64,000 nt of DNA from a virus (lineage: Duplodnaviria > Caudoviricetes). This document shows positions 304 to 14,327 of the stretch, piece by piece. The DNA lies in the IMG/VR virus record IMGVR_UViG_3300026158_000083, positions 9,691 through 73,690 of that record, one strand, 5' to 3'. How positions within the stretch are numbered: the stretch's first letter is position 1; each line of letters opens with the position of its first letter. Under the pieces are notes generated by a model that worked only from the letters and a program-made list of their open reading frames with translations, was not told the DNA's origin and searched no databases. The position numbers and the translations under genes are program-made.

Positions 304-306
304 CAC

Positions 307-630
307 ATGGCACTTACACCAGAACAACAGAACATTGTCGCAGAGTACACCCGGCAGCAGCGGGCCACCGTGGGCGAGTTCGCACGGCTGCTCAACCACA
401 TGGCCGCGCTCGATGCGATGTACGACGGGCAGGTGACGGCAGCCTGGGCTTCGCTGGCAGTGGGCGACGTGATAGCGGACGGTTCGGGCCTCGCGGGTGT
501 GTCCTCGCTGACGAAAGCCGAGATTGCGTCGATTGCGACGGCGATGCAAGCGATCCTGACGACCTACAATGGCGAGGCGCTGCGGCAACTCTACGTGCGC
601 ATGGCAGGCATTTCCAACACAGTGGGCTGA
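307..630 (+). CDS. Hypothetical late-region protein
   Basis: 107-aa ORF with GAGGAG SD upstream, tightly packed with neighbours. Confidence 0.7.
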   Translation: MALTPEQQNIVAEYTRQQRATVGEFARLLNHMAALDAMYDGQVTAAWASLAVGDVIADGSGLAGVSSLTKAEIASIATAMQAILTTYNGEALRQLYVRMAGISNTVG

Positions 631-633: not shown

Positions 634-1773
634 ATGGCAATCACTCACAATTACGTGGACTATGGCGCTGGCAACGACACCACGGGGGACGGCACAGTTG
701 GCACACCGTGGAAGACGCTGCAAAAAGCGTTTGACACGCTGACGCGCAACACCACCGACGGCAACCAGGTCAACCTGAAGGCTGGCACGGCGCACGTCAA
801 CGCGGCTGCGCTTGATCTGACGACGTTAATCGCAGGCGGAGCATTGTCTGGCGTCGCGCCGCTTATCATTCGCGGCTACACCTCGGCGGCTAACGATGGC
901 GGCATCGGGGAGATTGACTGTGGCGGGGCGACGATGTTCGCGGCAACGACGTATGACTATATCATAATGGCTGACCTGGAAATACATACGTTTGGCGACA
1001 ATAATGGCCTGGTGCTGGATCAATATGCCACCCTGTACCATTGCGAAATACACAAAGGGGTAAGTTCGCCATCTGGTAAATCTCTCGTCACGTTGGGTCT
1101 GTACTCTAAGGCATTGGCGTGTTATTTACACGACATTGGCGCGGCGGCTTCCAGGGGCTTGCGATTAAATAATAACGGGCTGGTTATGTCCTGCTACGTG
1201 GACATGGGGGCTGATTCTACGTCATACGGCATTGATTTATTTGGCACTTTTAGTTACGCAATTGGCAATGTCGTAAAGTGCAGCAATGTCAATCAGTACG
1301 CGCTGTTTTTGTCCGCCGCTGACACGGCAATCGGGAATATTGCGTATAGCTCCACGAGCAGCACGAAGTACGGCATCTTTTTAGACAGTGCTACCTCGCT
1401 TTGGAGCGTTGCATTGAATAATATCGTCGTCGGATGGAGCGGTGCAGGTGGCAGCAGTATAAAGTTTTCGGGTGATGCTCAACTGGTCGGGCACAACGCC
1501 TTCTACAACAACACGGCAAACTATACCGTTGTCGGTCAAACCTTCATCGACCTGACCGCTAACGACGTGGCGCTCGCGGCTGACCCGTTCACGGATGCGG
1601 CCAACGGCGACTTCTCGCTGACCGCGGCGGCCAAGACGGCGCTCGCGGCGAAGGGCTTTCCGCTGGCATACCTCGGCGCGCACGCGAACACGGTGCCGAA
1701 TCTCAACATCGGGCCGATCCAGTTGGCGGCAGGTCGGCCTGCGTTCGGGGATCGCTCAGGGGGTAAGTTCTGA
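634..1773 (+). CDS. Parallel beta-helix (pectin-lyase-like) protein with DUF1565-type N-terminus; candidate virion spike or decoration protein
   Basis: YVDYGAGNDTTGDGTVGTPWKTLQKA start, Asn-ladder repeats (IGNVV, IGNIA, ALNNIV, GHNAFYNN), ends in DPFTDAANGDFSL...NIGPIQ. No signal peptide. Confidence 0.7.
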   Translation: MAITHNYVDYGAGNDTTGDGTVGTPWKTLQKAFDTLTRNTTDGNQVNLKAGTAHVNAAALDLTTLIAGGALSGVAPLIIRGYTSAANDGGIGEIDCGGATMFAATTYDYIIMADLEIHTFGDNNGLVLDQYATLYHCEIHKGVSSPSGKSLVTLGLYSKALACYLHDIGAAASRGLRLNNNGLVMSCYVDMGADSTSYGIDLFGTFSYAIGNVVKCSNVNQYALFLSAADTAIGNIAYSSTSSTKYGIFLDSATSLWSVALNNIVVGWSGAGGSSIKFSGDAQLVGHNAFYNNTANYTVVGQTFIDLTANDVALAADPFTDAANGDFSLTAAAKTALAAKGFPLAYLGAHANTVPNLNIGPIQLAAGRPAFGDRSGGKF

Positions 1774-3563
1774 TGCAAGTTGCAAACGGTTCGACAGACG
1801 TAAGCACTTACTTTGTCCTGCGCGACTCCACGACGCACGCGCCTAAAACGGACGTGACCGTAACCGACATCGACCTGTATTACGTCGAACAGGGCGCGGC
1901 GATCTCGGCAAAAGCCGACGCCACTGCGCTGGCTGCGGCTGACTCGGCACATGGCGACAATCAGGCGTTTCATGTCGGGCAAGGCTTGTACCGCATTGAT
2001 TGGCCCGATAACTGCTTCAATGGCGGTGTAGGTAAGCTATGCGAGTTGATCGTCGTGTGTACTGGCGTTGATACCACGTTCCTCGAAGTCGAATTGACAG
2101 GTGTTGCACAGACCGGCGACAGCTATGCCATCGTCAACCATGCCGACTACGGCAACGCCAAGCTGGTGCGCTCAACCACTCCGGCGAACACTTTGACCGT
2201 AGATGCCTCGCACCAGGCGCTGGCACTGACGAACGCCGTCACGAACGATGCGATCACGGCGGCGGCGATTGCGAACGGCGCGATTGATGCGGCGACGTTT
2301 GCGGCAGGCGCGATTGATGCGGCGGCGATTGCAGACAACGCGATTGACAACGGCGCATTGGCCGCGGATGCGATCAGCGCGGCGAAGATCGCGGCTGACG
2401 TGACGACCGAACTGCAAGCGGGTCTTGCGACGGCAACCGCGGCCTTGATCCTGGCTACGCCTGCTAACAAGTTGGTTACAGATGCGAGTGGCTACGTCAA
2501 GGTTTCGGGCGTCAAGAATACATTAGACTCCCTGAATGACATTGCTGCTGGCGAAGCCATGACGCTGACTGCCGCCTACGACGCAGCTAAGACCGCCGCG
2601 ACACAGACCAGCGTAAACGCGATTGATGATTACGTAGATGCCGAGGTTGCGGCAATCAAGACAGTCACAGACAAGCTGGATACGGCACTGGAATTGGATG
2701 GCGCAGTATATCGTTACACTACAAATGCACTGGAACAAGCGCCAACTGGTGGTTCTGCGCCTTCAGTTGATGATATTGCAACCAGACTGCTTGTTACACC
2801 TGCTAATAAGCTTGCCACCGATGCTACTGGCAATGTCAGTCTTACGTCTGCCTATGATGCAGCTAAGACCGCAGCCACGCAAACAAGCGTCAACGATTTG
2901 CCGACTAACAGCGAACTGGCAACGGCGCTGGCCGGGGCCGATGATGCTGTGCTAGCTGCCATCACTGGTCTGAACGACTTTGATCCGGCGGCAGACGTGG
3001 TTGCACACGTCACGCTCGTTGACACGACGACGACGAACACGGACATGATCGCGGCTGCGCCAAGTGCGACGGACATCAAGACCGCATTGGAAGCCGATGG
3101 ATCGAAGCTAGATCACCTGTGGGAGATGACAGAGGACGATGGAGGGGTGCGGAGGTTGACGGCTAACGCGCTTGAAGAAGGATCATCTGGTACTGGTTTG
3201 GACGCTGCTGGTGTTAGAACGGCAATTGGGCTTGCTACGGCAAATCTCGATACGCAGCTTGCCAATATACCGGCAGATGTTGATACAGAGCTTTCTGCAA
3301 CACACGGTGCTGGTGCGTGGGGCGCAAGTATGGGCGCTAGTTCAGTTACGTATACTGTAACCGTAGACGGATTGCCAAAGGACGGCGTGTATTGTAGAAT
3401 GACTAGCGATGCAGATGGTCTTGTCAATATAGATGCCGGATACAGCAATGCATTGGGTCAGGTGACATTCTATCATGACGTACCTAGCGGTACTACGGTA
3501 TATATTTGGCGACAACTGGCAGGTATTAGCTTCACGAACCCGGATACTGAGGTGATTCCGTGA
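1773..3563 (+). CDS. Ala/Thr/Asp-rich repeat protein, probable virion fibre or decoration protein
   Basis: AIDAA pentapeptide run. Internal duplications: TPANKLxTDAxG x2, AYDAAKTAATQTSVN x2, xDGxVxRxTxNALE x2. Lies directly upstream of the connector gene. Confidence 0.55.
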   Translation: MQVANGSTDVSTYFVLRDSTTHAPKTDVTVTDIDLYYVEQGAAISAKADATALAAADSAHGDNQAFHVGQGLYRIDWPDNCFNGGVGKLCELIVVCTGVDTTFLEVELTGVAQTGDSYAIVNHADYGNAKLVRSTTPANTLTVDASHQALALTNAVTNDAITAAAIANGAIDAATFAAGAIDAAAIADNAIDNGALAADAISAAKIAADVTTELQAGLATATAALILATPANKLVTDASGYVKVSGVKNTLDSLNDIAAGEAMTLTAAYDAAKTAATQTSVNAIDDYVDAEVAAIKTVTDKLDTALELDGAVYRYTTNALEQAPTGGSAPSVDDIATRLLVTPANKLATDATGNVSLTSAYDAAKTAATQTSVNDLPTNSELATALAGADDAVLAAITGLNDFDPAADVVAHVTLVDTTTTNTDMIAAAPSATDIKTALEADGSKLDHLWEMTEDDGGVRRLTANALEEGSSGTGLDAAGVRTAIGLATANLDTQLANIPADVDTELSATHGAGAWGASMGASSVTYTVTVDGLPKDGVYCRMTSDADGLVNIDAGYSNALGQVTFYHDVPSGTTVYIWRQLAGISFTNPDTEVIP

Positions 3564-4447
3564 GCGATTGGGTCGGCAGCGGTTCAGTAATTTCAACGCC
3601 TGAATCAAGATCATGTCTTGAATACCTAACCGTTGCCGACGTACGCGCTGAGTTTGGTGACGAAGTAGCCGAAGATACCGATATCAGCATTCAGCGCCGC
3701 ATCGATCAAATGTCTGCGTTTCTGGAAGATCAGATCGGGCACACTTTTGGACGAGCCATGATTGCGCGCTCTAGCGACGCCGATACTGTGTTGGTTACAG
3801 CTACTGAATTAGAGATCGGCGGTGCGCACTATACATTCGCCGATTATCCGACTCTGTCAGAACTGGCTTCTGCCGTAAACGCTACTACGGGCAATTACAG
3901 CGTAGAACTGTTGCCGCGCGTTCGGCCAGACACACCATCTACGCTACTCGCGCTGCATAGCGTTTCGGCCTGCGGACCGGATTACGATGATCGTACGGTT
4001 TTGTGTACGTCGTCAATGTACACGCGACTTACCGGACAGTACCAGTCACACATATTCTTGCCACTGGCGCTAAATTCAGTTTCTGCCGTCGTCGAAGATT
4101 TGGTCGCGCTGGCAACAACCGACTATTGGGCTATTCCTGGTGATGCGTGGCTGATTCGCAAGGCTTGCGGTTGTAATACGACTTGCGTGCACGCGCGCGG
4201 TCGTTGGTCAGCCGCTTATCCTGGCAATATCGCAGTTAGTTTTGTACCGTCATTTTGGGGTCGTGTGCCGGGTTCATTAAGTGGACTATTGCTAGAAGCT
4301 TTTAGCGCACGAACAGGTCTGGCACCATTCAACTCTGAAACGTTCGGTGACTACAGTTACAAGCGGCCAGCGGCACCCGTAGCTGGCTGGAACGACATTT
4401 TGGGCAGTGGCGCATTGCGACAATACGCAACGCGTTTTCAACCGTAG
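3560..4447 (+). CDS. Head-tail connector (SPP1 gp15/HK97 gp6-like)
   Basis: N-terminal YLTVADVR...IDQMSAFLEDQIGHTF and C-terminal SETFGDYSY, both typical of connector proteins; position fits. Confidence 0.65.
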   Translation: MSDWVGSGSVISTPESRSCLEYLTVADVRAEFGDEVAEDTDISIQRRIDQMSAFLEDQIGHTFGRAMIARSSDADTVLVTATELEIGGAHYTFADYPTLSELASAVNATTGNYSVELLPRVRPDTPSTLLALHSVSACGPDYDDRTVLCTSSMYTRLTGQYQSHIFLPLALNSVSAVVEDLVALATTDYWAIPGDAWLIRKACGCNTTCVHARGRWSAAYPGNIAVSFVPSFWGRVPGSLSGLLLEAFSARTGLAPFNSETFGDYSYKRPAAPVAGWNDILGSGALRQYATRFQP

Positions 4448-4463
4448 GTTAGTTTGAGGTGCT

Positions 4464-7139
4464 ATGACTGCTAAAGACGGCACGCCGCAAGCGGTGTGCT
4501 TCTATCCTCGCTTTGCTTCGCACGAATTAGGTGGCGTAGCTGTACATATCCGCTATCTGGCGCGCCATCTACAAAAACTTGGTTTTACAATTGTTGATAC
4601 ACCAGACGAAAACACGCTTATTCACGCGCACGCACAAGCGCGACCTGAAAACATAACGGTTTACTCAAATCATGGGATTTACCCGATAAAAGACAAAATG
4701 CCAGCGTGGCAGATTGGCACCAATGCCGCGATCTTCGACAATCTAAAACTAGCTACTGAAATTATTGCTGTCAGTAACTGGACGGCTAATCAATGGCAGC
4801 ATTTGGTCGGACGTCAACCGCATATCATTCACAATTCAATTGACATGGATGAGTGGCATAGTGCGCCTGCCGGTCAGTGGCGCGCACGACTAAAAGTGCC
4901 GAACAAAACGCCGCTAATTTTGTGGGGTAAGACTTCGCTTAGCGATGTGCTTGATCCAACACCGCTTATTGAATTGGCGCTTCATCATCCTAATATGCGC
5001 TTTGTCGCGCCATTGACGCCGCGCATGTTAACGACAAGTCTAAAAAACCTTTCACTAATTGGTCAACAGCCGTTTGAAGATATGCGCGCCTTGCTACAAG
5101 ATTGCGATGTCTACTTGGCTACTGTGCAGGAAAATCATAGTATTCAAGTTCTGGAAGCTATGGCGCTGAAAAAGCCAATTTTAGGTTATAATTGGGGCGG
5201 TACTGGTGAAACGTTAAATATTTCAGGCCAAACGCGCGGTGGCATTTTGACAGAGCCGCGCGATCTTATCAAATTGATCGCGTTATTGCCTGAAGTTTAC
5301 GAACAGCGCGTCAAACTCGGTCAAGACGGTCACGAACTTGTTGCTGAATATTTTTCAGCAGCCAAGCAGATGCCTAAACTAGTAGAGGTGTACAAGATGG
5401 CGCTAGAAAAGAAACCAAGACAGTCTCGCGCATCACCTATAGTGCGTTGTTCAATCGTTATTCCGGTTTATAATAAGGGTCCCTACATTGGCGAAACGGT
5501 CAACAGCGCATTGCGTCAGATCAACGCGCCCAAGCACGAAGTCATTGTCGTCGATGACGGTTCCACGGATGATTCGCTACTAAATGCAAGACGTGCGGCT
5601 GAAGGTCGCACCAATATTCGCTTTTACTCACTGCCTAATGGCGGTGTTTCAGCGGCGCGCAATTTCGGCATAAGTCACGCGAAGGGCGAATATATTTGCT
5701 GTCTTGACGCCGATGACTTGATCGATCCTAATTTTCTAAGTCGTCTTTCAGCAGCACTGGATGCCGATCCTGGTCTTGGTATCGCCTATAGCGATTTTGT
5801 AGCTTTTGGCACAAATCAAAGAGGCATGCCATTTGAAGCGCCAATAACCTGTGAAGAATACGATTTTGAAAAACTCAAGCGCGGCAATCTCATGCCGTGC
5901 TGTAATCTGTTTAGGCGCACGGCTTGGGAACGCGCAGGCGGCTATAAGCCAATCAATCCGTCGTGGGAAGATTACGAACTCTGGCTGAACATGGGCAAGC
6001 TTGGCTGGTATGGCCGACGTGTGCCGGGTCATTTGTTCAAGTATCGCAAAGTGCCGAAGACTGGACGCGATTATCAGTCGCAGGGGCTGGAATGGAAACT
6101 GCGCGCGACGGTCAATAGCTATCATCGCGATCTTTATCCGCCGCTAGTAAGCATTATCATACCATGCTACAAACACAGTCATTTTTTGCGCACCGCCATT
6201 GATAGCGTTCTGGCGCAGACTTTCAACGATTACGAAGTGCTGGTTGTAGATGACGGTAATGATGCTGATGAGCTAAACTCAATTCGCGAAATTGTTGAAA
6301 GTTACGCCAATCCAAACGTACGCGTGGTGCGTCACACACAGAATATGGGTCTTGCCGCCGCGCGTAACACTGGCGTAGAGATGGCGCGCGGTCAGTGGAT
6401 CGTACCGCTAGATGCTGACGACAAGCTTGCGCATGAGTTTCTGGAAGAAGTGTTGCGCGCATCTGAGCAGTTGAATCCCAATCGCTTTGTCTATGCAGAC
6501 ACCTATTTGTGGTGGCCGGATGCCGATCCGGAAACTAAGCTGTTAGCCGCCAACGATTACAATTTTGACGAAAGTCTTAGCAAGATAACGTGGTCATGCA
6601 CGATTTTGTTTCATCGTGATGCATGGCAACGCGTTGGTGGCTACAAACCGCAGATGTCGGAACTTGGCGGTTGGGAAGATTGGGAATTCGCGATTTCGTT
6701 GGGCGAAAACGGTATTTGCGGCGTGCATGTTGCTAAGCCGTTATTCTATTATCGCCAACATTCTAATACGCAGATGCGCATGCAGGCCGAAAGCAATAAG
6801 CCAGTCTTGCAAGAGGCGATTCGTCGCTTGCATAGCGAAGTTTATCGCGGGGAGAGAACTCAAATGTGTTGTGGAGCAGGTAAACGCACGCGTCCTGTAG
6901 CGACCGTAGATCAGACCGTACCCGTTGCGCGTACTATGCCGCAAATCGCAGCCGCAACTTCAAACACGAATGATCGTGTTTTGATTCGCTATGTCGGCAC
7001 GCATCTAGGTTCGCAGACCTGGGTCGCGCCAAGCGGCGAACGCTATCGTTTCGGCTTGAATGATCCGCTGCAAAGGGTGCGCTATGAAGATGTTGACTTC
7101 TTTATCAGCCGCGGGCCATTTAGACAGGTAACAGCATGA
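4464..7139 (+). CDS. Multidomain glycosyltransferase: GT4 (GT-B) + GT2 + GT2 + C-terminal MCCG domain
   Basis: GT4: IIAVSNWTA...IIHNSID...VLEAMALKKPI. GT2 #1: SIVIPVYN...VVDDGSTD...SAARNFGI...LDADD. GT2 #2: SIIIPCYK...VVDDG...LAAARNTGV...LDADD. Confidence 0.92.
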   Translation: MTAKDGTPQAVCFYPRFASHELGGVAVHIRYLARHLQKLGFTIVDTPDENTLIHAHAQARPENITVYSNHGIYPIKDKMPAWQIGTNAAIFDNLKLATEIIAVSNWTANQWQHLVGRQPHIIHNSIDMDEWHSAPAGQWRARLKVPNKTPLILWGKTSLSDVLDPTPLIELALHHPNMRFVAPLTPRMLTTSLKNLSLIGQQPFEDMRALLQDCDVYLATVQENHSIQVLEAMALKKPILGYNWGGTGETLNISGQTRGGILTEPRDLIKLIALLPEVYEQRVKLGQDGHELVAEYFSAAKQMPKLVEVYKMALEKKPRQSRASPIVRCSIVIPVYNKGPYIGETVNSALRQINAPKHEVIVVDDGSTDDSLLNARRAAEGRTNIRFYSLPNGGVSAARNFGISHAKGEYICCLDADDLIDPNFLSRLSAALDADPGLGIAYSDFVAFGTNQRGMPFEAPITCEEYDFEKLKRGNLMPCCNLFRRTAWERAGGYKPINPSWEDYELWLNMGKLGWYGRRVPGHLFKYRKVPKTGRDYQSQGLEWKLRATVNSYHRDLYPPLVSIIIPCYKHSHFLRTAIDSVLAQTFNDYEVLVVDDGNDADELNSIREIVESYANPNVRVVRHTQNMGLAAARNTGVEMARGQWIVPLDADDKLAHEFLEEVLRASEQLNPNRFVYADTYLWWPDADPETKLLAANDYNFDESLSKITWSCTILFHRDAWQRVGGYKPQMSELGGWEDWEFAISLGENGICGVHVAKPLFYYRQHSNTQMRMQAESNKPVLQEAIRRLHSEVYRGERTQMCCGAGKRTRPVATVDQTVPVARTMPQIAAATSNTNDRVLIRYVGTHLGSQTWVAPSGERYRFGLNDPLQRVRYEDVDFFISRGPFRQVTA

Positions 7140-7813
7140 AGACGTGGTTTATACCAACTGTCATGGTGCGCAATGAAGAACATCATATTGCGCAAGTGTT
7201 GCGACCGCTTGTTGCAGTTTGTGGTCACGTCATGCTCGGCGATACAGGTTCGACTGACAATACCGTAGCGATTGCCAAGCAAATCGACGGCGTAGAAATT
7301 ATCGAATACGGCCAGCAATCGCAAATCGGTCTTACTGAAACGCGGCATAATTTGGGTCTACGCGTCAAAGAAAAAGGCTGCAAATGGCAGTTGCTGTGCG
7401 ATGGCGATGAACTGTACAATGTAACTACGTTGCAACACATCGCGAATGAAGGTATGCCGAATGACAAGTTGACCGGCTTCACGAAAATGAAGTCCATCGA
7501 TGCCGATACAGATGGCTCGCTTTGGGAAATGAACGACAAGTTTTCGCGTGCCGCGCTTCTGCCAGCCGATACAACCTGGCATGGCATCTATCCATTCGAT
7601 GTACCGGACTGTTATCGTTACGATGCTAAATACTATTATTTTTCACTAGCGCAGGGCTATGAATATCACGCCGTGCATTTGCATCGCTTGACACGCAGCC
7701 CGCAGGACGCCGATGTAGTTTTGCGCATGACAAAACAAAAGCAGTTTGCCATGCGCGACGTAATTGTGCCGCGCACGATTATCTTCGATCTGGATTGGTG
7801 GTGCCGACAATGA
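7136..7813 (+). CDS. GT2 family glycosyltransferase
   Basis: MVRNEEHHI...GDTGSTDNT...LCDGDE (DxD-type motif); ATGA overlap with the upstream gene. Confidence 0.75.
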   Translation: MKTWFIPTVMVRNEEHHIAQVLRPLVAVCGHVMLGDTGSTDNTVAIAKQIDGVEIIEYGQQSQIGLTETRHNLGLRVKEKGCKWQLLCDGDELYNVTTLQHIANEGMPNDKLTGFTKMKSIDADTDGSLWEMNDKFSRAALLPADTTWHGIYPFDVPDCYRYDAKYYYFSLAQGYEYHAVHLHRLTRSPQDADVVLRMTKQKQFAMRDVIVPRTIIFDLDWWCRQ

Positions 7814-8481
7814 GTTTGCCGAAAATCAGCGTCATCATTCCATCGCGTGATCGACCGCAGGGTTTACTGGCCGCAATTGAGTCAATTCGCGCCACGCAGG
7901 GCGCTTACGACGTTGAAATTATTGCGGTGTTAGATGAGCCTGACGAGCTTAGCCAAAAGACTTTGCTGGACGAACATTCTGACGTGAAGATCGTCATTGG
8001 TGGTCCAGGCGATTATTATCTTGGCAAACCACAGGACAAATACAATCTCGGCTACGCAGCTTCGACTGGCGAATGGATTGTTACCGGATCAGACGATATC
8101 ACGTTTGAGTCGCAAGATTGGATCGGTGAGTGTCTGCGCTGCAATCGCGGCGGCTTCGTCGGCATCAGCGATGGCGGTCAAGATGTAAACTGGTGCTGTG
8201 TTATCCATATGGCGTCGCGCGCGTATATTGACACAGTGATGCGCGGCTATCTCGGTCTGCCCTGGTATCATGTCTGGTGGGCCGACGTTGAGTGGACACA
8301 GCGTGCTAAAATGTGCGGCTTGCACGCCGCGTGCACGACGATCAAGTTGACGCACCATCACTGGCTGCGCGGTAATGCGACTAAAGATACAATCGCGGAA
8401 CTGGTACAACAATTAGCGCCGGAAGATCAGAAGACCTATACCAGGCGTGTCGCGCGGCGCTTTGCAGATGATTTGCCATGA
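7810..8481 (+). CDS. GT2 family glycosyltransferase
   Basis: KISVIIPSRDR...YNLGYAASTGEWIVTGSDD...ADVEW; ATG at 7810 overlaps the upstream TGA. Confidence 0.8.
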   Translation: MSLPKISVIIPSRDRPQGLLAAIESIRATQGAYDVEIIAVLDEPDELSQKTLLDEHSDVKIVIGGPGDYYLGKPQDKYNLGYAASTGEWIVTGSDDITFESQDWIGECLRCNRGGFVGISDGGQDVNWCCVIHMASRAYIDTVMRGYLGLPWYHVWWADVEWTQRAKMCGLHAACTTIKLTHHHWLRGNATKDTIAELVQQLAPEDQKTYTRRVARRFADDLP

Positions 8482-8489
8482 GGTGTGTA

Positions 8490-9488
8490 ATGGAAAATAC
8501 TTTTGATCGGCTAGAACGCGTTGAAAATCTACTGCGCGCTATGCTAGGTCGTTCTTCGCAGCGGCTCAGCGTCTTGATTACAGGCGGCACTGGTACGTTA
8601 GGGATCGCTCTAACCGAAGCGTTTATTAATAGAGGTTATACCGTAACTGTTGTTAGTCGCAATCCGCATCGTCAGAGTCAGTTCAAACAAAAATATCCTA
8701 ACGTCGAGCTATATTTGGCCGATATTTGCGATTACGAAACCATGCTGCGCGCGTGTACCGGCAAGGATATTGTTATTCACGCGGCGGCTCTGAAGCGTGT
8801 TGATATTGGCGAAAGCGAGATTGCTGAATTCGCGCGTGTCAACATCGACGGCACTAAGACTGTAGCAGATGCCTGTCGTGCCGCAGGTGTTGAACGCGCG
8901 TTGTTCATATCTTCGGACAAGGCCGTCAGCGCGCTGAACTTTTACGGTGTCACCAAGGCCGCTGGCGAACGTATCTGGCTAGACCATCATGAAGGCAACA
9001 GCAATCTTGGTGTGCGCTTCAGCGCAGTGCGTTACGGCAACGTAATGGGTTCCAACGGCAGTGTGCTGCAAATTTGGCGCGAACGTTTGGCTAAGCAGTT
9101 GCCCATTGTCGTGCGTTCACCAAGCACAACGCGTTTCTTTATGCGCGTTGAAGACGCCGTGCAAATGATTTTTGACGCGCTGCTCTACATGCAGGGTAAC
9201 GAGATTTTCGTGCCGCTAACTACACCAGCCTTCGCATTGCATGATGTAGCTTTGTGCGTTGCACCGCGCAGCGAGTGGTGCATAGAACCGCTAGGCCCGC
9301 GCGAGAAGCAGCACGAACTGCTTGTCGCACCCGGCGAATATTATGAGACTGTCAGCGACAGGCTGTGTAAGATCATTCCAGATGTACCTGGTGACTTTAC
9401 GCTACCTGATTGGGCTTGTTCAAGGACGACGCGTCAGCTTGACGGTAAGACGGTGATTGAGATGCTGGAGAAAAGCGATCATGCTTGA
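8490..9488 (+). CDS. UDP-GlcNAc 4,6-dehydratase, PseB/FlaA1-like (Polysacc_synt_2 SDR)
   Basis: VLITGGTGTLG, IHAAALKRV, SSDKA, YGVTK (YxxxK), RYGNVMGSNGSV. Soluble ~330-aa single domain. GAGGTG SD before ATG 8490. FnlA/CapE-type activity not excluded. Confidence 0.85.
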   Translation: MENTFDRLERVENLLRAMLGRSSQRLSVLITGGTGTLGIALTEAFINRGYTVTVVSRNPHRQSQFKQKYPNVELYLADICDYETMLRACTGKDIVIHAAALKRVDIGESEIAEFARVNIDGTKTVADACRAAGVERALFISSDKAVSALNFYGVTKAAGERIWLDHHEGNSNLGVRFSAVRYGNVMGSNGSVLQIWRERLAKQLPIVVRSPSTTRFFMRVEDAVQMIFDALLYMQGNEIFVPLTTPAFALHDVALCVAPRSEWCIEPLGPREKQHELLVAPGEYYETVSDRLCKIIPDVPGDFTLPDWACSRTTRQLDGKTVIEMLEKSDHA

Positions 9489-9831
9489 TATTTTGCTTAT
9501 CGGTTTAGCGGCATGGCGTTTGGCGCATATGCTGGTCAAAGAGGATGGCCCGTTTGAAATGTTCAGCAAGCTGCGTAAGTTAGTTGGTATCGAGCAGATT
9601 GTTGTGCGAGACGGCGATAAAGTTGACGTTGCGCTAACAGCCAAAAACACGCTGGCGGAAGGTTTGCTGTGCGTGTGGTGCGTATCAGTGTGGACGGCTA
9701 CGCTGTTGTATGTCGGTACGCTGATCCCGCCTTTGCACGCGCCGTTTATATGGTTTAGTAGCATTTTGGCGATTAGCGCGCTAGCTATCGTCGTGCAGGA
9801 GTTTGTTACAGCTTTGCGGGGAGAAGAATAA
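9481..9831 (+). CDS. DUF1360-like membrane protein
   Basis: LAAWRLAHMLVKEDGPF...LLCVWCVSVW with three hydrophobic segments. Confidence 0.7.
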   Translation: MLDILLIGLAAWRLAHMLVKEDGPFEMFSKLRKLVGIEQIVVRDGDKVDVALTAKNTLAEGLLCVWCVSVWTATLLYVGTLIPPLHAPFIWFSSILAISALAIVVQEFVTALRGEE

Positions 9832-10403
9832 TGATCGATTCGCCGTGGGATAGACCGAATGTAGCCAATGAAATCGATGCGTATTGGGCCTGTCAGGATG
9901 AAACTGCCGCGCGCAAAGTTGTCGTGGCAGATTTGAAGCCGCATTTGCATGATGGCGATATTATGGATATCGGTTGTGGTAGCGGGCGCATTTATGAGAC
10001 GTTGCGCGACTTTGACATCATCAAAGAGCATCGCTATCGTGGTTATGATAGTTCACGCGAGATGATTGCCATTGCTAAAGGTCGCTACAAGCGCGTCAAG
10101 TTTGAATATGCTGATCTTATGGATATCGATCAACCAGCAGCCAACGTAATTTGTATCAATGTTTTGCAGCATATCGATGATTGGCAGACGACTACCAGCA
10201 AGATGTTGGGACTAGCCGAAAAGATGCTCTATGTCGTCGCGTGGTTTGGCAGCACGGCTAGTCGCAAATACGATAGCGGTACGGGTTTCTGGAATAACTG
10301 GCTGGATCATCAGAAATTCGTAGATTTTTGTCAGCCACACGGTATAGTTATCAGCCGTATGAATCTATGGGGTACGGTGGGTTCTGTAACAGTCTACAAG
10401 TGA
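9831..10403 (+). CDS. Class I SAM-dependent methyltransferase
   Basis: MDIGCGSGR motif I, YRGYDSS motif II, VLQHI. Confidence 0.88.
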   Translation: MIDSPWDRPNVANEIDAYWACQDETAARKVVVADLKPHLHDGDIMDIGCGSGRIYETLRDFDIIKEHRYRGYDSSREMIAIAKGRYKRVKFEYADLMDIDQPAANVICINVLQHIDDWQTTTSKMLGLAEKMLYVVAWFGSTASRKYDSGTGFWNNWLDHQKFVDFCQPHGIVISRMNLWGTVGSVTVYK

Positions 10404-10409
10404 GTTGCA

Positions 10410-10991
10410 ATGGATAAACCAGCATTTGTATATTCAATTCAACCGAATCCAGATTACGGTTACATCGTAGATGGCGAACACATTTTTTTGCGACCTATGC
10501 AGCCTAATCTACGAGATGGTTATTACGTGACGCGCTGGCGCAATCACGATAGCGCGCGTGTGGCGTTTTGGAACACACAGATTGTCACGCCGGAAAGTCA
10601 TATCAACTGGTTGAATAAAAAATCACCTTATGATATGGTGTGGATGGGTTGTAAGCACGGCACGTCTAAACCGATTGGTATGGTTGGCCTAATAATTGAT
10701 CCGGCAACGCATAGCGGAGAAGCTGGCCGTTACTTTGTCGATCAAGATGAGCGCGGTAACGGTTTTGGCGTCGATCTTGATAAGCTGGTTATCGCGACGG
10801 CATTTCAGTTGTTCAACCTAAACGCGATTTGGCTGGACGCTTGGGCGGCTAACGAAACCGCCATGAACATGCACATCAAGAACGGTTGGCGTGTAGCCGG
10901 TTACGATATTGCCGGTCACACACGCGTCGATGGTAGCGTAGTACACATGATAATCACTGCTAACGACTGGCATGTATTGCATGCGCCGTGA
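10410..10991 (+). CDS. GNAT N-acetyltransferase, PseH/RimJ-like
   Basis: LRPM...TRWRNH...TPESHINWL, GNGFG acetyl-CoA loop, NETAMNMHIKNGW. Confidence 0.8.
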   Translation: MDKPAFVYSIQPNPDYGYIVDGEHIFLRPMQPNLRDGYYVTRWRNHDSARVAFWNTQIVTPESHINWLNKKSPYDMVWMGCKHGTSKPIGMVGLIIDPATHSGEAGRYFVDQDERGNGFGVDLDKLVIATAFQLFNLNAIWLDAWAANETAMNMHIKNGWRVAGYDIAGHTRVDGSVVHMIITANDWHVLHAP

Positions 10992-11004
10992 ATAGTGGTA
11001 TGAT
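10977..11004 (+). promoter_or_regulatory. Possible sigma70-type promoter ahead of the aminotransferase gene
   Basis: TTGCAT (10977-10982), 16-nt spacer, extended -10 TGgTATGAT (10996-11004). Confidence 0.35.
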
Positions 11005-11032
11005 ACTGTCATTCTAGCGAAAGGCTGGTTTC

Positions 11033-12100
11033 ATGATTCAGGTTCTGCAACCGGCATATACCGAATCTGACATTGCCGCAGTTAGCGAAGCCATGCGCAG
11101 TTGCTGGTGGGGTTTGGGTCCGCGCTGCGTTGAGCTTGAAAAACAGTTGACCGAACGCAGCGGTTATAAGTACGCCGTAACTGTTAATTCGGCAACATCT
11201 GCGCTACATCTGGCCTTGCTGGCTAACAATGTTGGACCCGGCGATGAAGTAATCGTTCCAGCTCTGACATTCATTTCAACAGCGCTTGCAGTTACGTACA
11301 CCGGCGCGACGCCTGTATTTGCAGATATCGATCCAACAACGCTGACGCTGGATTGGCGCGATGTGCGTTCAAAAATTACTTGGCGCACAAAAGCGGTCAT
11401 TCCGGTAGACTATGCCGGACAGCCTGCGTGGCCGAGCGCGCTGCCTGCTAACATCACAATTGTTGAAGATGCGGCGCACAATGTGCTTGGTTCGCATTAT
11501 GGCGATGCCGTTTGCTATTCATTCCATCCAGTCAAGCAACTGGCTACGGCTGATGGCGGCGCGATTCTTACCAACAATGCGCAACAGGCCGCTAGACTGC
11601 AAGCGCTGCGTTGGTGTGGTATAGATCGTTCAACGTGGCAGCGCAGCGGTAAACGCTATTCGTGGGATTATGATATTGCTGAAGTTGGTTATAAATACCA
11701 ATTCAATGATATACAAGCTGCATTAGCGCTTTCGCAGCTAACACGTTGGGATGAGATTGTTGCTAGACGCCGCGCGATGGTAGATTACTATTTCAAAGAA
11801 TTGCGCGGCATCGATGGTTTAGAATTACCAGCAGATAGTGCCGGCCATACCTGGCATCTGTTTGTCGTGCGCGTCGCGTCAGAAAAGCGCGACGACTTAC
11901 TGGACTATCTGGCCGCAAAAGGCATTGGCGCAGGCGTGCATTACAAACCATTGACGCACTATAAACCTTATCTGCAAGAGACGCCGCCGTTGACCGAAAA
12001 GGTTTGGCGCAGATTGGTTACGTTGCCGCTACATCTCAATCTTAGTGTCGAAGATCAGGCGCAGGTATGCACGGCTATCAAGGAATATTTGGCTAAGTGA
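11033..12100 (+). CDS. DegT/DnrJ/EryC1/StrS PLP-dependent sugar aminotransferase (PseC-like)
   Basis: VNSATSALHLAL, GDEVIVP, EDAAH, YSFHPVK (PLP lysine), DGG, GYKY, WHLFVV, VHY. Confidence 0.93.
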   Translation: MIQVLQPAYTESDIAAVSEAMRSCWWGLGPRCVELEKQLTERSGYKYAVTVNSATSALHLALLANNVGPGDEVIVPALTFISTALAVTYTGATPVFADIDPTTLTLDWRDVRSKITWRTKAVIPVDYAGQPAWPSALPANITIVEDAAHNVLGSHYGDAVCYSFHPVKQLATADGGAILTNNAQQAARLQALRWCGIDRSTWQRSGKRYSWDYDIAEVGYKYQFNDIQAALALSQLTRWDEIVARRRAMVDYYFKELRGIDGLELPADSAGHTWHLFVVRVASEKRDDLLDYLAAKGIGAGVHYKPLTHYKPYLQETPPLTEKVWRRLVTLPLHLNLSVEDQAQVCTAIKEYLAK

Positions 12101-12101
12101 T

Positions 12102-12557
12102 ATGGCAACACTAGCACAACTAGCACCACGCATTTTTCGTTTAGCTAATCGTCGTTACGGTAAGCCGTATATGACAGTAGTTAGACCAGTCGATGATTGG
12201 AATCTGCCGAACGACTTTGCTTATGATCCAGACGTAGATGCGGTGCGCAATTCTAACGGTACAGTGTTGCCTAATCCCGAAGATTATTGGACATCTGATG
12301 TTGTCTATATTGTGCCAACTAAAGCTGACTGGCGCGATGATGTAGCAGAACTCTTTAAGGTTGTCGCCGGTGGCATGCTAAACGAAGGTACATTGGAATT
12401 GTGGATTGCTCAGGGCGATATCAGTAAAGTAAGAGCCGCACATTCAGTTTTGCTGGATCGTCGATGGTATAATGTCGAAAATCAACAGGAAGCGCCATCA
12501 GGTTATCCTGGTACAGACGGCTTGTGGAGCCGGGTTAGATTGCGGGGTAGGTCATGA
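12102..12557 (+). CDS. Putative head-closure (stopper) protein
   Basis: Size, beta-rich C-terminus (SVLLDRRWYNV...RVRLR) and position before the terminator and tube genes. Confidence 0.5.
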   Translation: MATLAQLAPRIFRLANRRYGKPYMTVVRPVDDWNLPNDFAYDPDVDAVRNSNGTVLPNPEDYWTSDVVYIVPTKADWRDDVAELFKVVAGGMLNEGTLELWIAQGDISKVRAAHSVLLDRRWYNVENQQEAPSGYPGTDGLWSRVRLRGRS

Positions 12558-12949
12558 TACTGGAAGTTTTTGAAAGTATACTCGCGGCCTACAAGACTGA
12601 ATTATCTGTTACGACTAGCAAGGGCTATCCTAACTGGGCGCGGCCAGATTTGGTAACACCTTGCGCGGCGCTAGAGTTCGCCGGATTTCAGCCGTATAAA
12701 GATCGTATCGGCCAAACGCTCAGTACATCTAGCATTACATTTAGGGGCTGGCTTTTCGCGCGGGATGAGCCACAACTATGCGCAATGGTAGATGCATTGA
12801 TCGAATGGCACAGAACTGACGGCAGCGCGTTTGAAGCGGCAGCGCGACGCGTAGCCTGTATGCTGCAAGCTTTGGAACGCCATGATCCGTTGACTAGCAA
12901 TATCAACGAGACGCATGCCGTAACTTTCTTACTACAAGTAGTCTACTGA
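12554..12949 (+). CDS. Putative tail terminator
   Basis: 131 aa, directly upstream of the tail tube gene. Confidence 0.45.
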   Translation: MILEVFESILAAYKTELSVTTSKGYPNWARPDLVTPCAALEFAGFQPYKDRIGQTLSTSSITFRGWLFARDEPQLCAMVDALIEWHRTDGSAFEAAARRVACMLQALERHDPLTSNINETHAVTFLLQVVY

Positions 12950-12964
12950 GACTAAGAGGTAAAA

Positions 12965-13474
12965 ATGGCTCGTATCGCATTTAATGCCGATTTGGACCTG
13001 CGACAGCAATATCTGTCCATGCTTTATCATAAGATTCCTGGCGAAGCAGCTTGGACGCTTATCGATCAGGGCAAGGTCAGCACGCCGTCGTCTAAGGCTG
13101 ACGAAAAAACCTACAACCGCATCGGCGATGAAAATCAGGTCAAGGTCGCTGGTCAGATTACCACTGACGTGACGCTGCAAGTCTATGTCGATGATAATCT
13201 TGACGAAGTAGCCCGCATGCTTGGTTTCGTTCGTCCTGGTAGCGGTTGGTCGGGCAGTGAGGTTATCAAGCTCGATCCGACTAAGGTAAGCGATCTCAAG
13301 CTTGAGAGCTATAACGGTGTTACGGCGGGCAGCACGCTGCTGTACACCGAATACATCAATCAGTTCCGCCCGATGAACTTCTCGGTGCCTGAGGACGCTG
13401 ATGGCGACGTGCGTATCGCTGAACTTAGTGGTTCGTGCGCCAGCTACTACATCGTACCTGAGTCCGGAACGTAA
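12965..13474 (+). CDS. Tail tube (major tail) protein
   Basis: 169 aa, beta-strand pattern (TDVTLQVY...AELSGSC), strong GAGG SD, synteny with chaperone and tape measure genes. Confidence 0.65.
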   Translation: MARIAFNADLDLRQQYLSMLYHKIPGEAAWTLIDQGKVSTPSSKADEKTYNRIGDENQVKVAGQITTDVTLQVYVDDNLDEVARMLGFVRPGSGWSGSEVIKLDPTKVSDLKLESYNGVTAGSTLLYTEYINQFRPMNFSVPEDADGDVRIAELSGSCASYYIVPESGT

Positions 13475-13495
13475 GTTTGGCTGGTAAAAGCGGCA

Positions 13496-13517
13496 GGGGC
13501 GTTCGCAAGAACGCCCC
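13496..13517 (+). promoter_or_regulatory. GNRA-capped stem-loop after the tail tube gene
   Basis: GGGGCGTTC-GCAA-GAACGCCCC, 9-bp perfect stem, no U tract. Confidence 0.55.
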
Positions 13518-13536
13518 GGTGTCTGATAGGGGGAGT

Positions 13537-14088
13537 ATGGACAATAAAGTCACGCTGACCGATGCGGTCGGCAACGAAATGCTGTCGTTTGAGGTGGACG
13601 GCAAGCAATTCTATGTGCGCCAGCCGACGCCGGAAGAATATGACGACGCGATGGCGCTGCAATCCTTGGTGTATCGCAAGACGCTGGCCGCACCGCACAT
13701 CAAAGACGTTGCTGATGTGCCGTGTTCTGATGGCGAACGCGCCATATTTCAGGCTATGATTGATGACGCACAGCGCAGGTTCGATGAATCTGAGGATGAG
13801 GTCGCAAAGCAGAGTCTGGCACAGGAGCTGGCTCGTCTGCAAACCGAACTTGAAGGACGCACGCTGGCGGAGGAAACGGCTTCCGATACCGCAGCGCTAA
13901 AACGCGACCGTTGGCTATGTGCGCGCTTGCTGTGCGACGCTAACGGTAAATCGTTGTTCGACACTGCCAGCAAAGACTTTGAAAAACGTTGGAACAAATT
14001 GCCGGTACGCATCAAGAATGAGGTGCGACCGCTTATCTGGCGCGCATTGGCATTGGTGCGTGAAGCCCCTTTCTCGTTGGACCTCTAA
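13537..14088 (+). CDS. Tail assembly chaperone (gpG-like)
   Basis: Between tube and tape measure genes; GGGGAG SD before ATG 13537; slippery heptamer near the 3' end. Confidence 0.75.
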   Translation: MDNKVTLTDAVGNEMLSFEVDGKQFYVRQPTPEEYDDAMALQSLVYRKTLAAPHIKDVADVPCSDGERAIFQAMIDDAQRRFDESEDEVAKQSLAQELARLQTELEGRTLAEETASDTAALKRDRWLCARLLCDANGKSLFDTASKDFEKRWNKLPVRIKNEVRPLIWRALALVREAPFSLDL

Positions 14089-14324
14089 CGCGCGCACACA
14101 TCAGACTGGCCGAACGTTTTGGTCAGACGCCTTTTCGTGCTAGTTGGGCTGACATGAGTGCAGCTCAACTAGCCGTTATTTTAGCCGCACTACAAGACAG
14201 AGAGGTGGGCGAAGCTGATGCTAAGGCTAAGCCACTTAAGGAACAACCGCGCGTTTCGCGCAGTGTTATGCTAGAATTAGCAAAACGAACCAATCAAACA
14301 GTTGTTGACGCTAAGGCGGAATAA
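14067..14324 (+). CDS. -1 frameshift extension of the tail chaperone (gpGT-like)
   Basis: C CCT TTC at 14067-14073. The -1 frame is open for 85 codons (PFLVGPLTRAHIRLAERFGQTP...) to TAA 14322-14324, just before the tape measure ATG. Confidence 0.8.
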   Translation, partial: PFLVGPLTRAHIRLAERFGQTPFRASWADMSAAQLAVILAALQDREVGEADAKAKPLKEQPRVSRSVMLELAKRTNQTVVDAKAE

Positions 14325-14327
14325 CGC

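What the first reader, a model, noticed from the sequence alone, without database searches (positions are those of the whole stretch)
4464..12100. Sugar-synthesis and glycosyltransferase cassette inserted inside the virion neck module
Seen: eight co-oriented genes, mostly overlapping or a few nt apart, encoding five GT domains, a dehydratase, an aminotransferase, an acetyltransferase, a methyltransferase and a DUF1360-like protein. They sit between the head-tail connector and the head-closure/terminator/tube genes, which are normally adjacent. Known: some mycobacteriophages glycosylate capsid or tail proteins with their own GTs, and giant viruses make rare nucleotide sugars for their fibrils. 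Inference: this phage makes its own rare amino-sugar donor and builds a multi-residue, possibly methylated glycan on the virion or on a phage-encoded surface protein. I do not know of a phage system that combines donor synthesis with this GT set, but novelty needs a search.
Basis: partly seen in the sequence, partly recalled or inferred. Interest (0 to 1): 0.92.

Follow-up and report, generated by a model that had tools for sequence, protein, structure and literature searches.

The report
Phage virion sugar-coating gene cassette
An uncultured tailed phage, probably of Chloroflexota, carries eight genes in the middle of its neck genes that make a rare amino sugar and build a methylated sugar chain. 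The chain most likely coats the virus particle; the core of the block is shared by dozens of uncultured phages, but no one has tested it.

Summary
Window 4464-12100 encodes eight tightly coupled, co-oriented genes:
- an 891-aa GT4+GT2+GT2 fusion
- two small GT2-like proteins
- a PseB-like 4,6-dehydratase
- a 3-TM DUF1360 protein
- a SAM methyltransferase
- a PseH-like GNAT
- a PseC/ArnB-like aminotransferase

Structure prediction shows that the upstream gene is a head-tail adaptor and the downstream gene a stopper-like neck protein. The block therefore does split the neck module.

It is not a recent insertion. All 10 close relatives have the adaptor followed directly by the triple GT. The 7 relatives whose DNA reaches that far then have DUF1360 followed by neck or tail genes, with a variable set of sugar-tailoring genes in between. 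About 35 more distant IMG/VR contigs keep the triple GT downstream of the capsid gene, and most of them also keep DUF1360. Only this phage has the full dehydratase/aminotransferase/acetyltransferase trio.

Best reading (about 0.55): a late-expressed, cytoplasmic virion-glycosylation system. It is analogous to, but not homologous with, the mycobacteriophage Corndog/Che8 system, and it follows the same logic as giant-virus fibril glycosylation. The acceptor is not shown.

This scan had already found the same kind of cassette on at least 8 other genomes. I class it as a new variant of a known kind.

The parts
634..1773 (+). 379-aa beta-helix-like protein in the variable slot between capsid gene and adaptor; a possible head or neck appendage
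   Evidence: Weak DUF5123 (3.6e-4) and a PHROG 'tail protein' hit. N-terminal motif read by eye. Absent from relatives L004 and L008, where the capsid gene abuts the adaptor.
1773..3563 (+). 596-aa Ala/Thr-rich fibre-like protein; candidate glycan acceptor (speculative)
   Evidence: Weak phrog_892 tail fibre hit. Homologs lie upstream of the adaptor in L003, L005, L061 and L066, and a very weak, short fibre match (25 aa) lies inside the cassette of L006/L014.
3560..4447 (+). Head-tail adaptor (HK97 gp6 / SPP1 gp15 / YqbG fold) with an inserted beta-sandwich domain (aa 151-234)
   Evidence: AF2 pLDDT 84.9. Foldseek: 9lw9_C E 4.3e-4, plus T5, DT57C and GTA necks. VIA: 9lw9_D Z 10.2, 8hqo_R Z 9.6, 8zdl_a Z 9.0, HK97 gp6 3jvo Z 6.3.
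4464..7139 (+). 891-aa triple glycosyltransferase: GT4 (nt 4500-5324), GT2 (5451-6095), GT2 (6138-6743), and a C-terminal small domain
   Evidence: Pfam. Alignment A5: 68% mean column identity, with both DxD motifs and the ENHSIQVLEAMA motif conserved. No TM segment. 43 IMG/VR loci.
6864..7136 (+). C-terminal 'MCCG' module: conserved Met, CCG, a low-complexity linker and a ~60-aa beta domain. Possible nested gene or docking/acceptor domain
   Evidence: The Met is conserved in all 6 relatives. 103 clusters carry the domain; the stand-alone 54-100-aa proteins start MGCCGG at exactly this point. Atlas structural neighbours are 80-83-aa hypothetical proteins and a viral GT4 cluster. No PDB match.
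7136..7813 (+). 225-aa GT2-like protein (below cut-off)
   Evidence: Glyco_tranf_2_4 1.1e-5, 26.2 bits vs cut-off 27.5. phrog_13126 6e-5. Homologs in L005 and L006.
7810..8481 (+). GT2 glycosyltransferase (about 223 aa from the ATG at 7810)
   Evidence: PF00535 26.2 bits vs cut-off 23.3. phrog_14945 2.2e-11.
8478..9488 (+). PseB/FlaA1-like UDP-HexNAc 4,6-dehydratase (extended SDR)
   Evidence: Polysacc_synt_2 1.7e-57. TIGR03589 PseB 192.8 bits, below cut-off 407.75. Nearest solved chain 2gn4 FlaA1, 6.7e-42. GGTGTLG, SSDKA and YGVTK motifs present.
9481..9831 (+). DUF1360 small membrane protein (3 predicted TM segments); always the last gene of the cassette
   Evidence: PF07098 3.7e-10. Hydropathy scan. 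Conserved partner of the triple GT in close and distant loci. phrog_781, function unknown.
9831..10403 (+). Class-I SAM methyltransferase (probable sugar methylation)
   Evidence: Methyltransf_25/12/31/11. DIGCGSG motif. Methyltransferases recur in the relatives' cassettes.
10410..10991 (+). GNAT N-acetyltransferase, PseH-like
   Evidence: Acetyltransf_1 1.5e-9. TIGR03585 PseH 56.4 bits, below cut-off 93.1.
11033..12100 (+). DegT-family UDP-4-keto-sugar aminotransferase (PseC/ArnB-like)
   Evidence: PF01041 4.2e-91. PseC 277.8 bits and ArnB 272.8 bits, both below cut-off. Nearest solved chain ArnB 1mdo 2.2e-64; PseC 2fn6 3.4e-33. SFHPVK PLP-lysine motif.
12102..12557 (+). 151-aa neck protein, stopper/head-closure-like
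   Evidence: AF2 pLDDT 70.5. Foldseek top hits are all phage necks: 9m6x_S 1.4e-4, Bas63, SaPI1, Pam3, T1 stopper, SPP1 gp6/15/16. VIA: 9jlf_C Z 8.2, 8hdr_A Z 7.9.
12554..14088 (+). 131-aa (terminator candidate), 169-aa (tube candidate, 54-63% conserved) and 203-aa (chaperone candidate) genes, followed by the 1743-aa tape-measure-like gene at 14328-19559
   Evidence: Synteny and conservation only. Weak phrog_344 chaperone hit. An alternative-frame ORF bridges 14060-14326. Coiled-coil-rich 1743-aa sequence.

Best explanation
This is a late-expressed, cytoplasmic glycosylation system that belongs to the phage's morphogenesis programme.

Proposed pathway (inferred from homology):
1. The PseB-like dehydratase converts host UDP-GlcNAc to a UDP-4-keto-6-deoxy-HexNAc.
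2. The PseC/ArnB-like aminotransferase aminates C4.
3. The PseH-like GNAT N-acylates it, giving a UDP-2,4-diacetamido-2,4,6-trideoxyhexose. The stereochemistry is unresolved: a bacillosamine-type or a 6-deoxy-AltdiNAc-type sugar. The pathway stops there.
4. The conserved GT4+GT2+GT2 fusion and two small GT2-like enzymes assemble a glycan of several residues from this and host nucleotide sugars.
5. The SAM methyltransferase caps or tailors the glycan.

Proposed target: proteins exposed on the virion surface (capsid, neck/head fibre or tube), modified as they assemble in the cytoplasm.

The triple GT and the DUF1360 membrane protein are the invariant core. The genes between them form a swap-in tailoring set that differs from phage to phage, so related phages would carry different glycans.

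Status of each step:
- Shown: gene content, intact motifs, neck location, conservation.
- Inferred: substrates, product, co-transcription, and above all the acceptor.
For: - Families and intact motifs.
- The block sits between a structurally verified adaptor and a stopper-like protein.
- Gene gaps run from -8 to +41 nt, with no terminator, from 3560 to 14088.
- The adaptor is followed directly by the triple GT in 10 of 10 close relatives. Where the DNA reaches, DUF1360 is followed by the neck genes.
- About 35 distant IMG/VR contigs keep a full-length triple GT (27-34% identity) downstream of a related capsid gene, most with DUF1360 next to it.
- The intervening genes in those loci are sugar-tailoring enzymes: 15 DegT, more than 20 methyltransferases, 7 sulfotransferases, GT2, GT10, GNAT.
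- All enzymes are soluble.
- The 73.7-kb record has no integrase or resolvase, no Wzx, no initiating phosphoglycosyltransferase, no NeuB or CMP-transferase, and no ThyA-type hydroxymethylase.
- Precedent: Corndog gp35-38 lie between the gp34 gene and the annotated capsid maturation protease gene, and gp38 is reported as essential for capsid glycosylation (PMC12363180). Glycans sit at capsid and tail-tube C-termini (PMC12619734, citing Freeman 2023).
- Mimivirus uses dehydratase + aminotransferase + acetyltransferase/GT + methylation for its fibril glycans (PMC9614988).
Against: - No direct evidence for any acceptor.
- The capsid and tube candidates lack the long Ser/Thr-rich C-terminal tails seen in mycobacteriophages.
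- A conserved membrane protein (DUF1360) is unexpected for a purely cytoplasmic protein-glycosylation system.
- Soluble GT2/GT4 enzymes also build lipid-linked envelope glycans.
- Distant triple GTs often end in a helix-hairpin-helix-like tail, which hints at nucleic-acid binding.
- All three donor-synthesis enzymes score below their equivalog cut-offs.
- No expression data could be obtained.
- The record is only 88% complete.
Confidence: 0.55

Rival explanations
1. Host-envelope remodelling. The soluble GTs and the amino-sugar pathway act on the host's undecaprenyl-linked intermediates, or on S-layer or cell-wall glycans, during infection. This would change the cell surface, for example to block superinfection or to stop progeny sticking to debris. 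DUF1360 would be the membrane partner.
For: - GT2 domains hit PHROG 'GtrB-like O-antigen conversion' families.
- A small 3-TM protein is invariably coupled to the triple GT.
- GT2/GT4 enzymes without TM segments are typical of lipid-linked oligosaccharide assembly (established knowledge).
Against: - The position is fixed inside the late structural operon across wide divergence, unlike morons, which have their own promoters.
- No integrase or resolvase.
- No GtrA/Wzx-type flippase or initiating transferase.
- The GT2 domains lack the C-terminal TM anchors of GtrB.
- The capsid profile was found in only 1 of 401 Chloroflexota genomes, so the lineage does not look like a common prophage.
Confidence: 0.2
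2. The glycan is built on a dedicated small phage protein, the 'MCCG' module. This module is either translated from the internal start at 6864 or acts as the tethered C-terminus of the GT. It would serve as a glycan carrier or decoration protein, or be modified on its Cys/Ser/Thr-rich linker, rather than the glycan going directly onto capsid or tube subunits.
For: - The Met-x-CCG is conserved in all relatives, with an SD-like GGGGAG upstream.
- Stand-alone homologs start at exactly that Met. The domain occurs alone, N-terminally and C-terminally in 103 clusters.
- A viral GT4 cluster carries a structurally similar appendage.
Against: - No evidence that the internal start is used.
- No known function or solved relative for the domain.
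- Many distant triple GTs carry a different tail.
- It could simply be a docking domain.
Confidence: 0.12
3. DNA hypermodification: the transferases glycosylate modified bases of the phage genome to evade restriction.
For: - Phage GTs classically glucosylate hmC DNA, and multi-sugar DNA glycans are reported (cited in PMC12619734 and PMC9614988).
- Distant triple GTs carry helix-hairpin-helix-like tails.
Against: - No ThyA-family hydroxymethylase in the record.
- The cassette lies in the structural operon, not the replication module.
- Five GT domains plus an N-acetylated diamino sugar and a membrane protein are not features of known DNA-glycosylation systems.
Confidence: 0.05

Closest known systems
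Mycobacteriophage virion glycosylation (Corndog gp35-38; Che8 gp110; Myrna; Freeman et al. 2023, read only through PMC12363180 and PMC12619734)
   Same: - Phage-encoded GTs sit inside the head/neck assembly operon. In Corndog, four genes lie between the gp34 gene and the annotated capsid maturation protease gene. That gp34 is the portal and that one of the four is a methyltransferase rests on my memory and on earlier scan notes.
- The enzymes are cytoplasmic.
- The presumed product is a glycan shield on capsid and tail proteins.
   Different: - No sequence kinship beyond the GT-A superfamily: the best hit is Corndog gp37 vs the GT2 domain at E 0.001, and no mycobacteriophage appears among 126 tblastn hits.
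- Here there is a three-domain fusion GT, a conserved DUF1360 membrane protein and a nucleotide-sugar synthesis trio.
- The location is between adaptor and stopper.
- The host is probably Chloroflexota.
- Nothing has been shown experimentally.
Giant-virus fibril glycosylation clusters (Mimivirus R141 dehydratase, L136 aminotransferase, L142 acetyltransferase-GT, 2-O-methyl-viosamine; PMC9614988)
   Same: The logic is the same: the virus makes its own 4-amino-4,6-dideoxy sugar (dehydratase, then PLP aminotransferase, then N-acetyltransferase). It adds the sugar with its own GTs, methylates it, and decorates the particle surface independently of host sugars.
   Different: - That is a eukaryotic giant virus; this is a tailed phage.
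- The starting sugar there is UDP-Glc; here it is probably UDP-GlcNAc (PseB-like enzyme).
- The acetyltransferase there is of the left-handed beta-helix type; here it is a GNAT.
- No homology was tested beyond the family level.
First three steps of pseudaminic acid biosynthesis (PseB, PseC, PseH), or bacillosamine synthesis (PglF, PglE, PglD)
   Same: The same three enzyme classes. PseB, PseC and PseH are the top NCBIfam models for the three proteins, and FlaA1 is the nearest solved dehydratase.
   Different: - All three score well below the equivalog cut-offs.
- The aminotransferase is as close to ArnB as to PseC.
- No PseG, PseI/NeuB or PseF anywhere in the record, so no nonulosonic acid is made by the phage alone.
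Capsid-linked GT / methyltransferase / DUF1360 cassettes of uncultured phages noted earlier in this scan (e.g. e1-5353785, e1-3273513, e1-3273636)
   Same: The same core (multi-GT fusion plus DUF1360) with a variable tailoring island inside the structural module. My own IMG/VR scan reproduces this independently.
   Different: - In this sub-lineage the adaptor gene lies upstream, so the cassette splits the neck rather than directly following the capsid gene.
- This member adds a complete dehydratase/aminotransferase/GNAT trio, which none of its 10 close relatives has.

Membership tests
Actinobacteriophage-type virion glycosylation cassette | Phage-encoded GT genes embedded in the virion structural operon | tested here: met
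   Cassette lies between adaptor and stopper, with -8 to +41 nt gaps. Corndog layout for comparison.
Actinobacteriophage-type virion glycosylation cassette | Sequence homology to Che8 gp110 / Corndog gp38 GTs | tested here: not met
   blastp of Corndog gp35-38 against all cassette proteins gives only gp37 vs a GT2 domain at E 0.001. No mycobacteriophage among the tblastn hits. Che8 was not compared directly.
Actinobacteriophage-type virion glycosylation cassette | Glycans demonstrated on capsid or tail-tube subunits | not testable with these tools
   Needs virions or recombinant co-expression plus mass spectrometry.
Pseudaminic acid pathway | PseB, PseC and PseH equivalogs | tested here: inconclusive
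   These are the top models, but all score below cut-off: 192.8 vs 407.75, 277.8 vs 423.5, 56.4 vs 93.1 bits.
Pseudaminic acid pathway | PseG, PseI (NeuB) and PseF (CMP-transferase) present | tested here: not met
   PF03102 and PF02348 were not found in the 73.7-kb record. PseG was not searched. The record is 88% complete.
Head-tail adaptor (HK97 gp6 / SPP1 gp15 / YqbG fold) | Adaptor fold in the protein upstream of the cassette | tested here: met
   pLDDT 84.9. VIA Z 10.2 (9lw9_D), 9.6 (8hqo_R), 9.0 (8zdl_a), 6.3 (3jvo). Foldseek E 4.3e-4.
Stopper / head-closure neck protein | Neck beta-barrel fold in the protein downstream of the cassette | tested here: met
   pLDDT 70.5. The top 19 Foldseek hits are phage necks (best 1.4e-4). 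VIA Z 8.2 and 7.9. Z values are modest and the exact neck role is unresolved.
GtrABC-type serotype conversion | GtrA flippase, membrane-anchored GtrB, temperate phage with integrase | tested here: not met
   No TM segments in any GT. No integrase or resolvase. No Wzx-type flippase. GtrA itself was not searched.
Phage DNA glycosylation | Hydroxymethyl-pyrimidine synthesis (ThyA-family hydroxymethylase) | tested here: not met
   PF00303 was not found in the record.
SU10-type major capsid protein (for the 467-aa gene upstream of the window) | Match to PF17236 | tested here: inconclusive
   No HMM match. Language-model neighbours include SU10_MCP clusters at 0.97-0.98. It is the most conserved gene of the lineage, at 56-65% identity.

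The most novel reading that the evidence does not exclude
The triple GT + DUF1360 core with its swap-in tailoring island (amination, acetylation, methylation, sulfation, fucosylation) is a widespread, hypervariable 'virion serotype locus' of environmental phages. It would be the phage counterpart of bacterial O-antigen/capsule loci, with the conserved MCCG module serving as the built-in docking or carrier element that directs the glycan to the particle.
Probability: 0.3. Interest if true: 0.8.

Novelty: new variant of a known kind. Interest (0 to 1): 0.6.

Why it matters
Virion glycosylation by phage-encoded enzymes has been shown only for a few mycobacteriophages.

This work points to an unrelated, much larger enzyme set. 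It is fixed inside the head-neck genes of a whole lineage of uncultured phages, apparently Chloroflexota-associated, and its core is shared by dozens of distant phage contigs. If these phages do coat their particles with self-made, variable, methylated or sulfated amino-sugar glycans, several things follow:
- Particle glycocalyces would be a common feature of environmental phages.
- They would affect adsorption, stability, grazing and defence evasion.
- GTs found in viromes could no longer be read by default as 'auxiliary metabolic' or DNA-modifying genes.

The system also offers compact enzymes for making rare diamino sugars and for glyco-engineering protein particles.

Tried and rejected
- Sequence searches of the flanking proteins against Pfam, PHROGs and PDB gave nothing useful. 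Structure prediction was needed.
- Single-protein IMG/VR scans with the 295-aa and 169-aa proteins found no relatives. Profile scans did.
- Megablast of 14.2 kb against cultured phages gave no match.
- tblastn of the triple GT against cultured phages gave only partial GT2 hits below 35% identity.
- The DUF1360 protein had no match in cultured phages.
- The best 'phage' hit of the aminotransferase that I inspected (Aphanizomenon phage Yong-DA) looks like a plasmid-type EPS locus and is not an analogue.
- The ~430-aa gene that follows DUF1360 in distant loci is unrelated to my adaptor, stopper, capsid and tube profiles (hhalign) and has no PHROG hit. The neck genes of that clade remain unidentified.
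- PF17236 does not match the capsid candidate.
- The alignment of stand-alone MCCG proteins was too divergent for a locus scan.
- Freeman et al. 2023 (PMC10527164) is not held.
- I rejected the reading of a recent horizontal insertion. GC content is similar to the neighbouring tail genes, and the core is ancestral.

Full report
**Context.** The window is bases 9691-73690 of a 73,690-bp linear IMG/VR virus record estimated to be 88% complete. I fetched the 9.7 kb upstream as L002. The record has no tRNA in the window, no integrase or resolvase, and no nucleotide-level relative among 50,697 cultured-phage records.

**The observation.** Eight co-oriented ORFs fill 4464-12100. Pfam, NCBIfam and PHROGs identify them as follows:
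- An 891-aa protein with GT4 (aa 13-287), GT2 (330-488) and GT2 (559-760).
- A 225-aa GT2-like protein just under the Pfam cut-off.
- A 228-aa GT2.
- A 336-aa Polysacc_synt_2 dehydratase. Its best NCBIfam model is PseB, and its nearest solved chain is H. pylori FlaA1 (2gn4, 6.7e-42).
- A 124-aa DUF1360 protein with three hydrophobic segments.
- A 190-aa class-I SAM methyltransferase.
- A 193-aa GNAT whose best model is PseH.
- A 355-aa DegT aminotransferase that scores almost equally for PseC and ArnB.

Cofactor and catalytic motifs are visible in the translations: GGTGTLG, SSDKA/YGVTK, SFHPVK, DIGCGSG, the DxD pairs, and the GT4 E-x7-E motif. Comparison with homologs moves three starts, to 7810, 9481 and, for the downstream gene, 12102. 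With those starts, every junction from 3560 to 14088 is between -8 and +41 nt. No convincing terminator lies inside.

**The flanks.** Sequence methods were blind here, so I used structure prediction.
- Upstream: an alignment of 34 homologs of the 295-aa protein gave a confident model (pLDDT 84.9). Its best structural matches are head-tail adaptors: Mycofy1 9lw9 (Z 10.2; Foldseek E 4.3e-4), DT57C/T5 neck (Z 9.6), Douge connector (Z 9.0), Mu neck, YqbG, Bxb1, and HK97 gp6 (Z 6.3). An extra beta-sandwich domain (aa 151-234) resembles modules of tailspike and baseplate proteins.
- Downstream: the 151-aa protein gave a weaker model (pLDDT 70.5). Its top Foldseek and VIA hits are nearly all phage neck proteins: NF5, Bas63, SaPI1, Pam3, T1 stopper, the SPP1 connector, and FCWL1 (Z 8.2).
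- Further downstream come a 131-aa gene, a highly conserved 169-aa gene with a strong ribosome-binding site, a 203-aa gene with a weak chaperone hit and an alternative-frame extension, and a 1743-aa coiled-coil tape-measure-like gene.
- The 467-aa gene upstream of the window is the most conserved in the lineage. It has language-model neighbours annotated as SU10-type capsid proteins, although the Pfam model itself does not match.

**Relatives.** Profile scans found close relatives in IMG/VR (L003-L006), in two Chloroflexota MAG bins (Caldilineales, Anaerolineae; L007, L008) and in JGI metagenomes (L061-L066).
- In all 10 distinct close relatives the adaptor gene is followed directly by a triple GT of 47-61% identity, or by one small ORF and then the triple GT.
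- Wherever the DNA reaches far enough (7 relatives), the block ends with DUF1360 followed by neck or tail genes; the full stopper, 131-aa, 169-aa and 203-aa series was seen in five.
- The genes between triple GT and DUF1360 vary: GT4, methyltransferases, a PIG-L deacetylase, a hexapeptide acyltransferase, a phosphodiesterase-family enzyme, an aminotransferase, even a fibre-like gene.
- The smallest cassettes are little more than triple GT + DUF1360, or these plus a methyltransferase (L066, L008).
- None of the relatives has the dehydratase or the GNAT. Only one has the aminotransferase.

The 'cassette' is thus an ancestral fixture with a variable slot, and the donor-synthesis trio is this phage's own addition.

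**Distant phages.** A profile of the triple GT found 43 IMG/VR loci.
- About 35 encode a full-length three-domain protein at 27-34% identity.
- It typically lies downstream of a 460-540-aa protein that matches my capsid profile (E 1e-7 to 1e-21), and of portal- and terminase-like genes.
- Most loci have a DUF1360 gene immediately after it.
- A census of 123 genes in the capsid-to-GT intervals of 23 such loci found 15 DegT aminotransferases, more than 20 methyltransferases, 7 sulfotransferases, dehydratases/epimerases, GT2, GT10 and GNATs.

This looks like a hypervariable glycan-tailoring island tied to the morphogenesis genes. The scan's notebook shows the same kind of cassette noted on at least eight other genomes. 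My result is independent of those notes but agrees with them.

**Mechanism.** The three sugar-nucleotide enzymes correspond to the first three steps of the pseudaminic acid or bacillosamine routes.
- The record lacks NeuB/PseI and a CMP-transferase, so the phage-encoded pathway should end at a UDP-2,4-diacetamido-2,4,6-trideoxyhexose. All three enzymes are below equivalog cut-offs, and the stereochemistry cannot be called.
- Five GT domains and a methyltransferase imply a glycan of several residues that is tailored after assembly.
- All enzymes lack TM segments.
- There is no initiating phosphoglycosyltransferase, no Wzx flippase, no integrase and no ThyA-type hydroxymethylase.

Together with the fixed position and tight coupling inside the late operon, this favours glycosylation of virion proteins in the cytoplasm. 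The acceptor is unknown. Candidates are the capsid protein (its conserved C-terminal PISPDPTSSYY stretch) and the Ala/Thr-rich 596-aa fibre encoded just upstream; the tube candidate has no obvious Ser/Thr-rich tail. The conserved DUF1360 membrane protein is not explained by this model.

**The C-terminal module.** Residues 801-891 of the triple GT begin at a Met conserved in all relatives (MCCGAG). A low-complexity linker and a ~60-aa beta domain follow. An exhaustive profile search found the domain in 103 clusters: as stand-alone 54-100-aa proteins that start MGCCGG at exactly this point, at the N-terminus of ~190-aa proteins, and at the C-terminus of 577-1022-aa proteins. A viral GT4 cluster carries a structurally similar appendage. 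It may be a docking domain, a nested gene or the acceptor itself; none of this was tested. Distant triple GTs carry a related beta domain, often followed by a helix-hairpin-helix-like tail. This remains unexplained.

**Comparison with known systems.**
- In mycobacteriophage Corndog, four genes (gp35-38) lie between the gp34 gene (the portal, from memory) and the annotated capsid maturation protease gene. gp38 is reported as essential for capsid glycosylation, with glycans on capsid and tail-tube C-termini (PMC12363180; PMC12619734, citing Freeman 2023, which I could not read). That system is the closest functional analogue, but it shows no sequence kinship beyond the GT-A fold.
- The dehydratase/aminotransferase/acetyltransferase/methylation/GT logic matches Mimivirus fibril glycosylation (PMC9614988).
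- I found no cultured phage with this set.

**Verdict.** This is a new variant of a known kind: a phage virion-glycosylation cassette. It is notable for its donor-synthesis trio, its split-neck position, its probable Chloroflexota host (binning evidence only) and its membership of a widespread uncharacterised module.

**Limits.** There is no expression or biochemical evidence. The record is incomplete.

Noticed in passing
window 6864-7136: Conserved in-frame Met-CCG start inside the triple GT, with GGGGAG upstream. Stand-alone 'MGCCGG' proteins of 54-100 aa begin exactly there, and the domain occurs in 103 protein clusters, fused or alone.
   Followed up: partly
L025-L050 (e.g. L026:7962-11231, L033:5902-9165): Distant triple GTs end in a helix-hairpin-helix-like tail (LPGVTP.IA...GIG..RA..I) after a small beta domain. 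This is unexpected for a protein glycosyltransferase.
   Followed up: no
window 1-630 and L002:9529-10320: An M23 peptidase (154 aa, Pfam 2.1e-27) and a 107-aa gene sit between the capsid candidate and the beta-helix/fibre genes. This is an unusual place for a cell-wall hydrolase domain.
   Followed up: no
window 634-3563, compared with L003-L006: The slot between the capsid gene and the adaptor is a second variable region. It holds beta-helix and fibre-like genes, and it is empty in L004 and L008. The adaptor's inserted beta-sandwich domain (aa 151-234) resembles tailspike attachment modules, so these may be neck or head fibres.
   Followed up: partly
L004:10865-11200, L008:2238-2573: Some relatives have a 111-aa protein with an HExxH motif (HEVLH) between the adaptor and the triple GT. 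It is absent from this window.
   Followed up: no
distant loci (census A7): Seven sulfotransferases and three GT10 fucosyltransferase-like genes lie in the capsid-to-GT islands of distant phages. Three IS605 OrfB/TnpB genes also lie inside these islands.
   Followed up: no
window 14060-14326: An alternative-frame ORF bridges the 239-nt gap between the 203-aa chaperone-like gene and the tape-measure gene. This is compatible with a G/GT-type frameshift product, but no canonical slippery heptamer was found.
   Followed up: partly
L013:3282-5344 (G001): One relative has two extra genes (453 and 234 aa) inserted between the stopper-like gene and the 135-aa neck gene.
   Followed up: no
L002:3318-4130 (-): An HNH/homing endonuclease gene on the opposite strand lies upstream of the head genes (phrog_559, 4.7e-14).
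   Followed up: no
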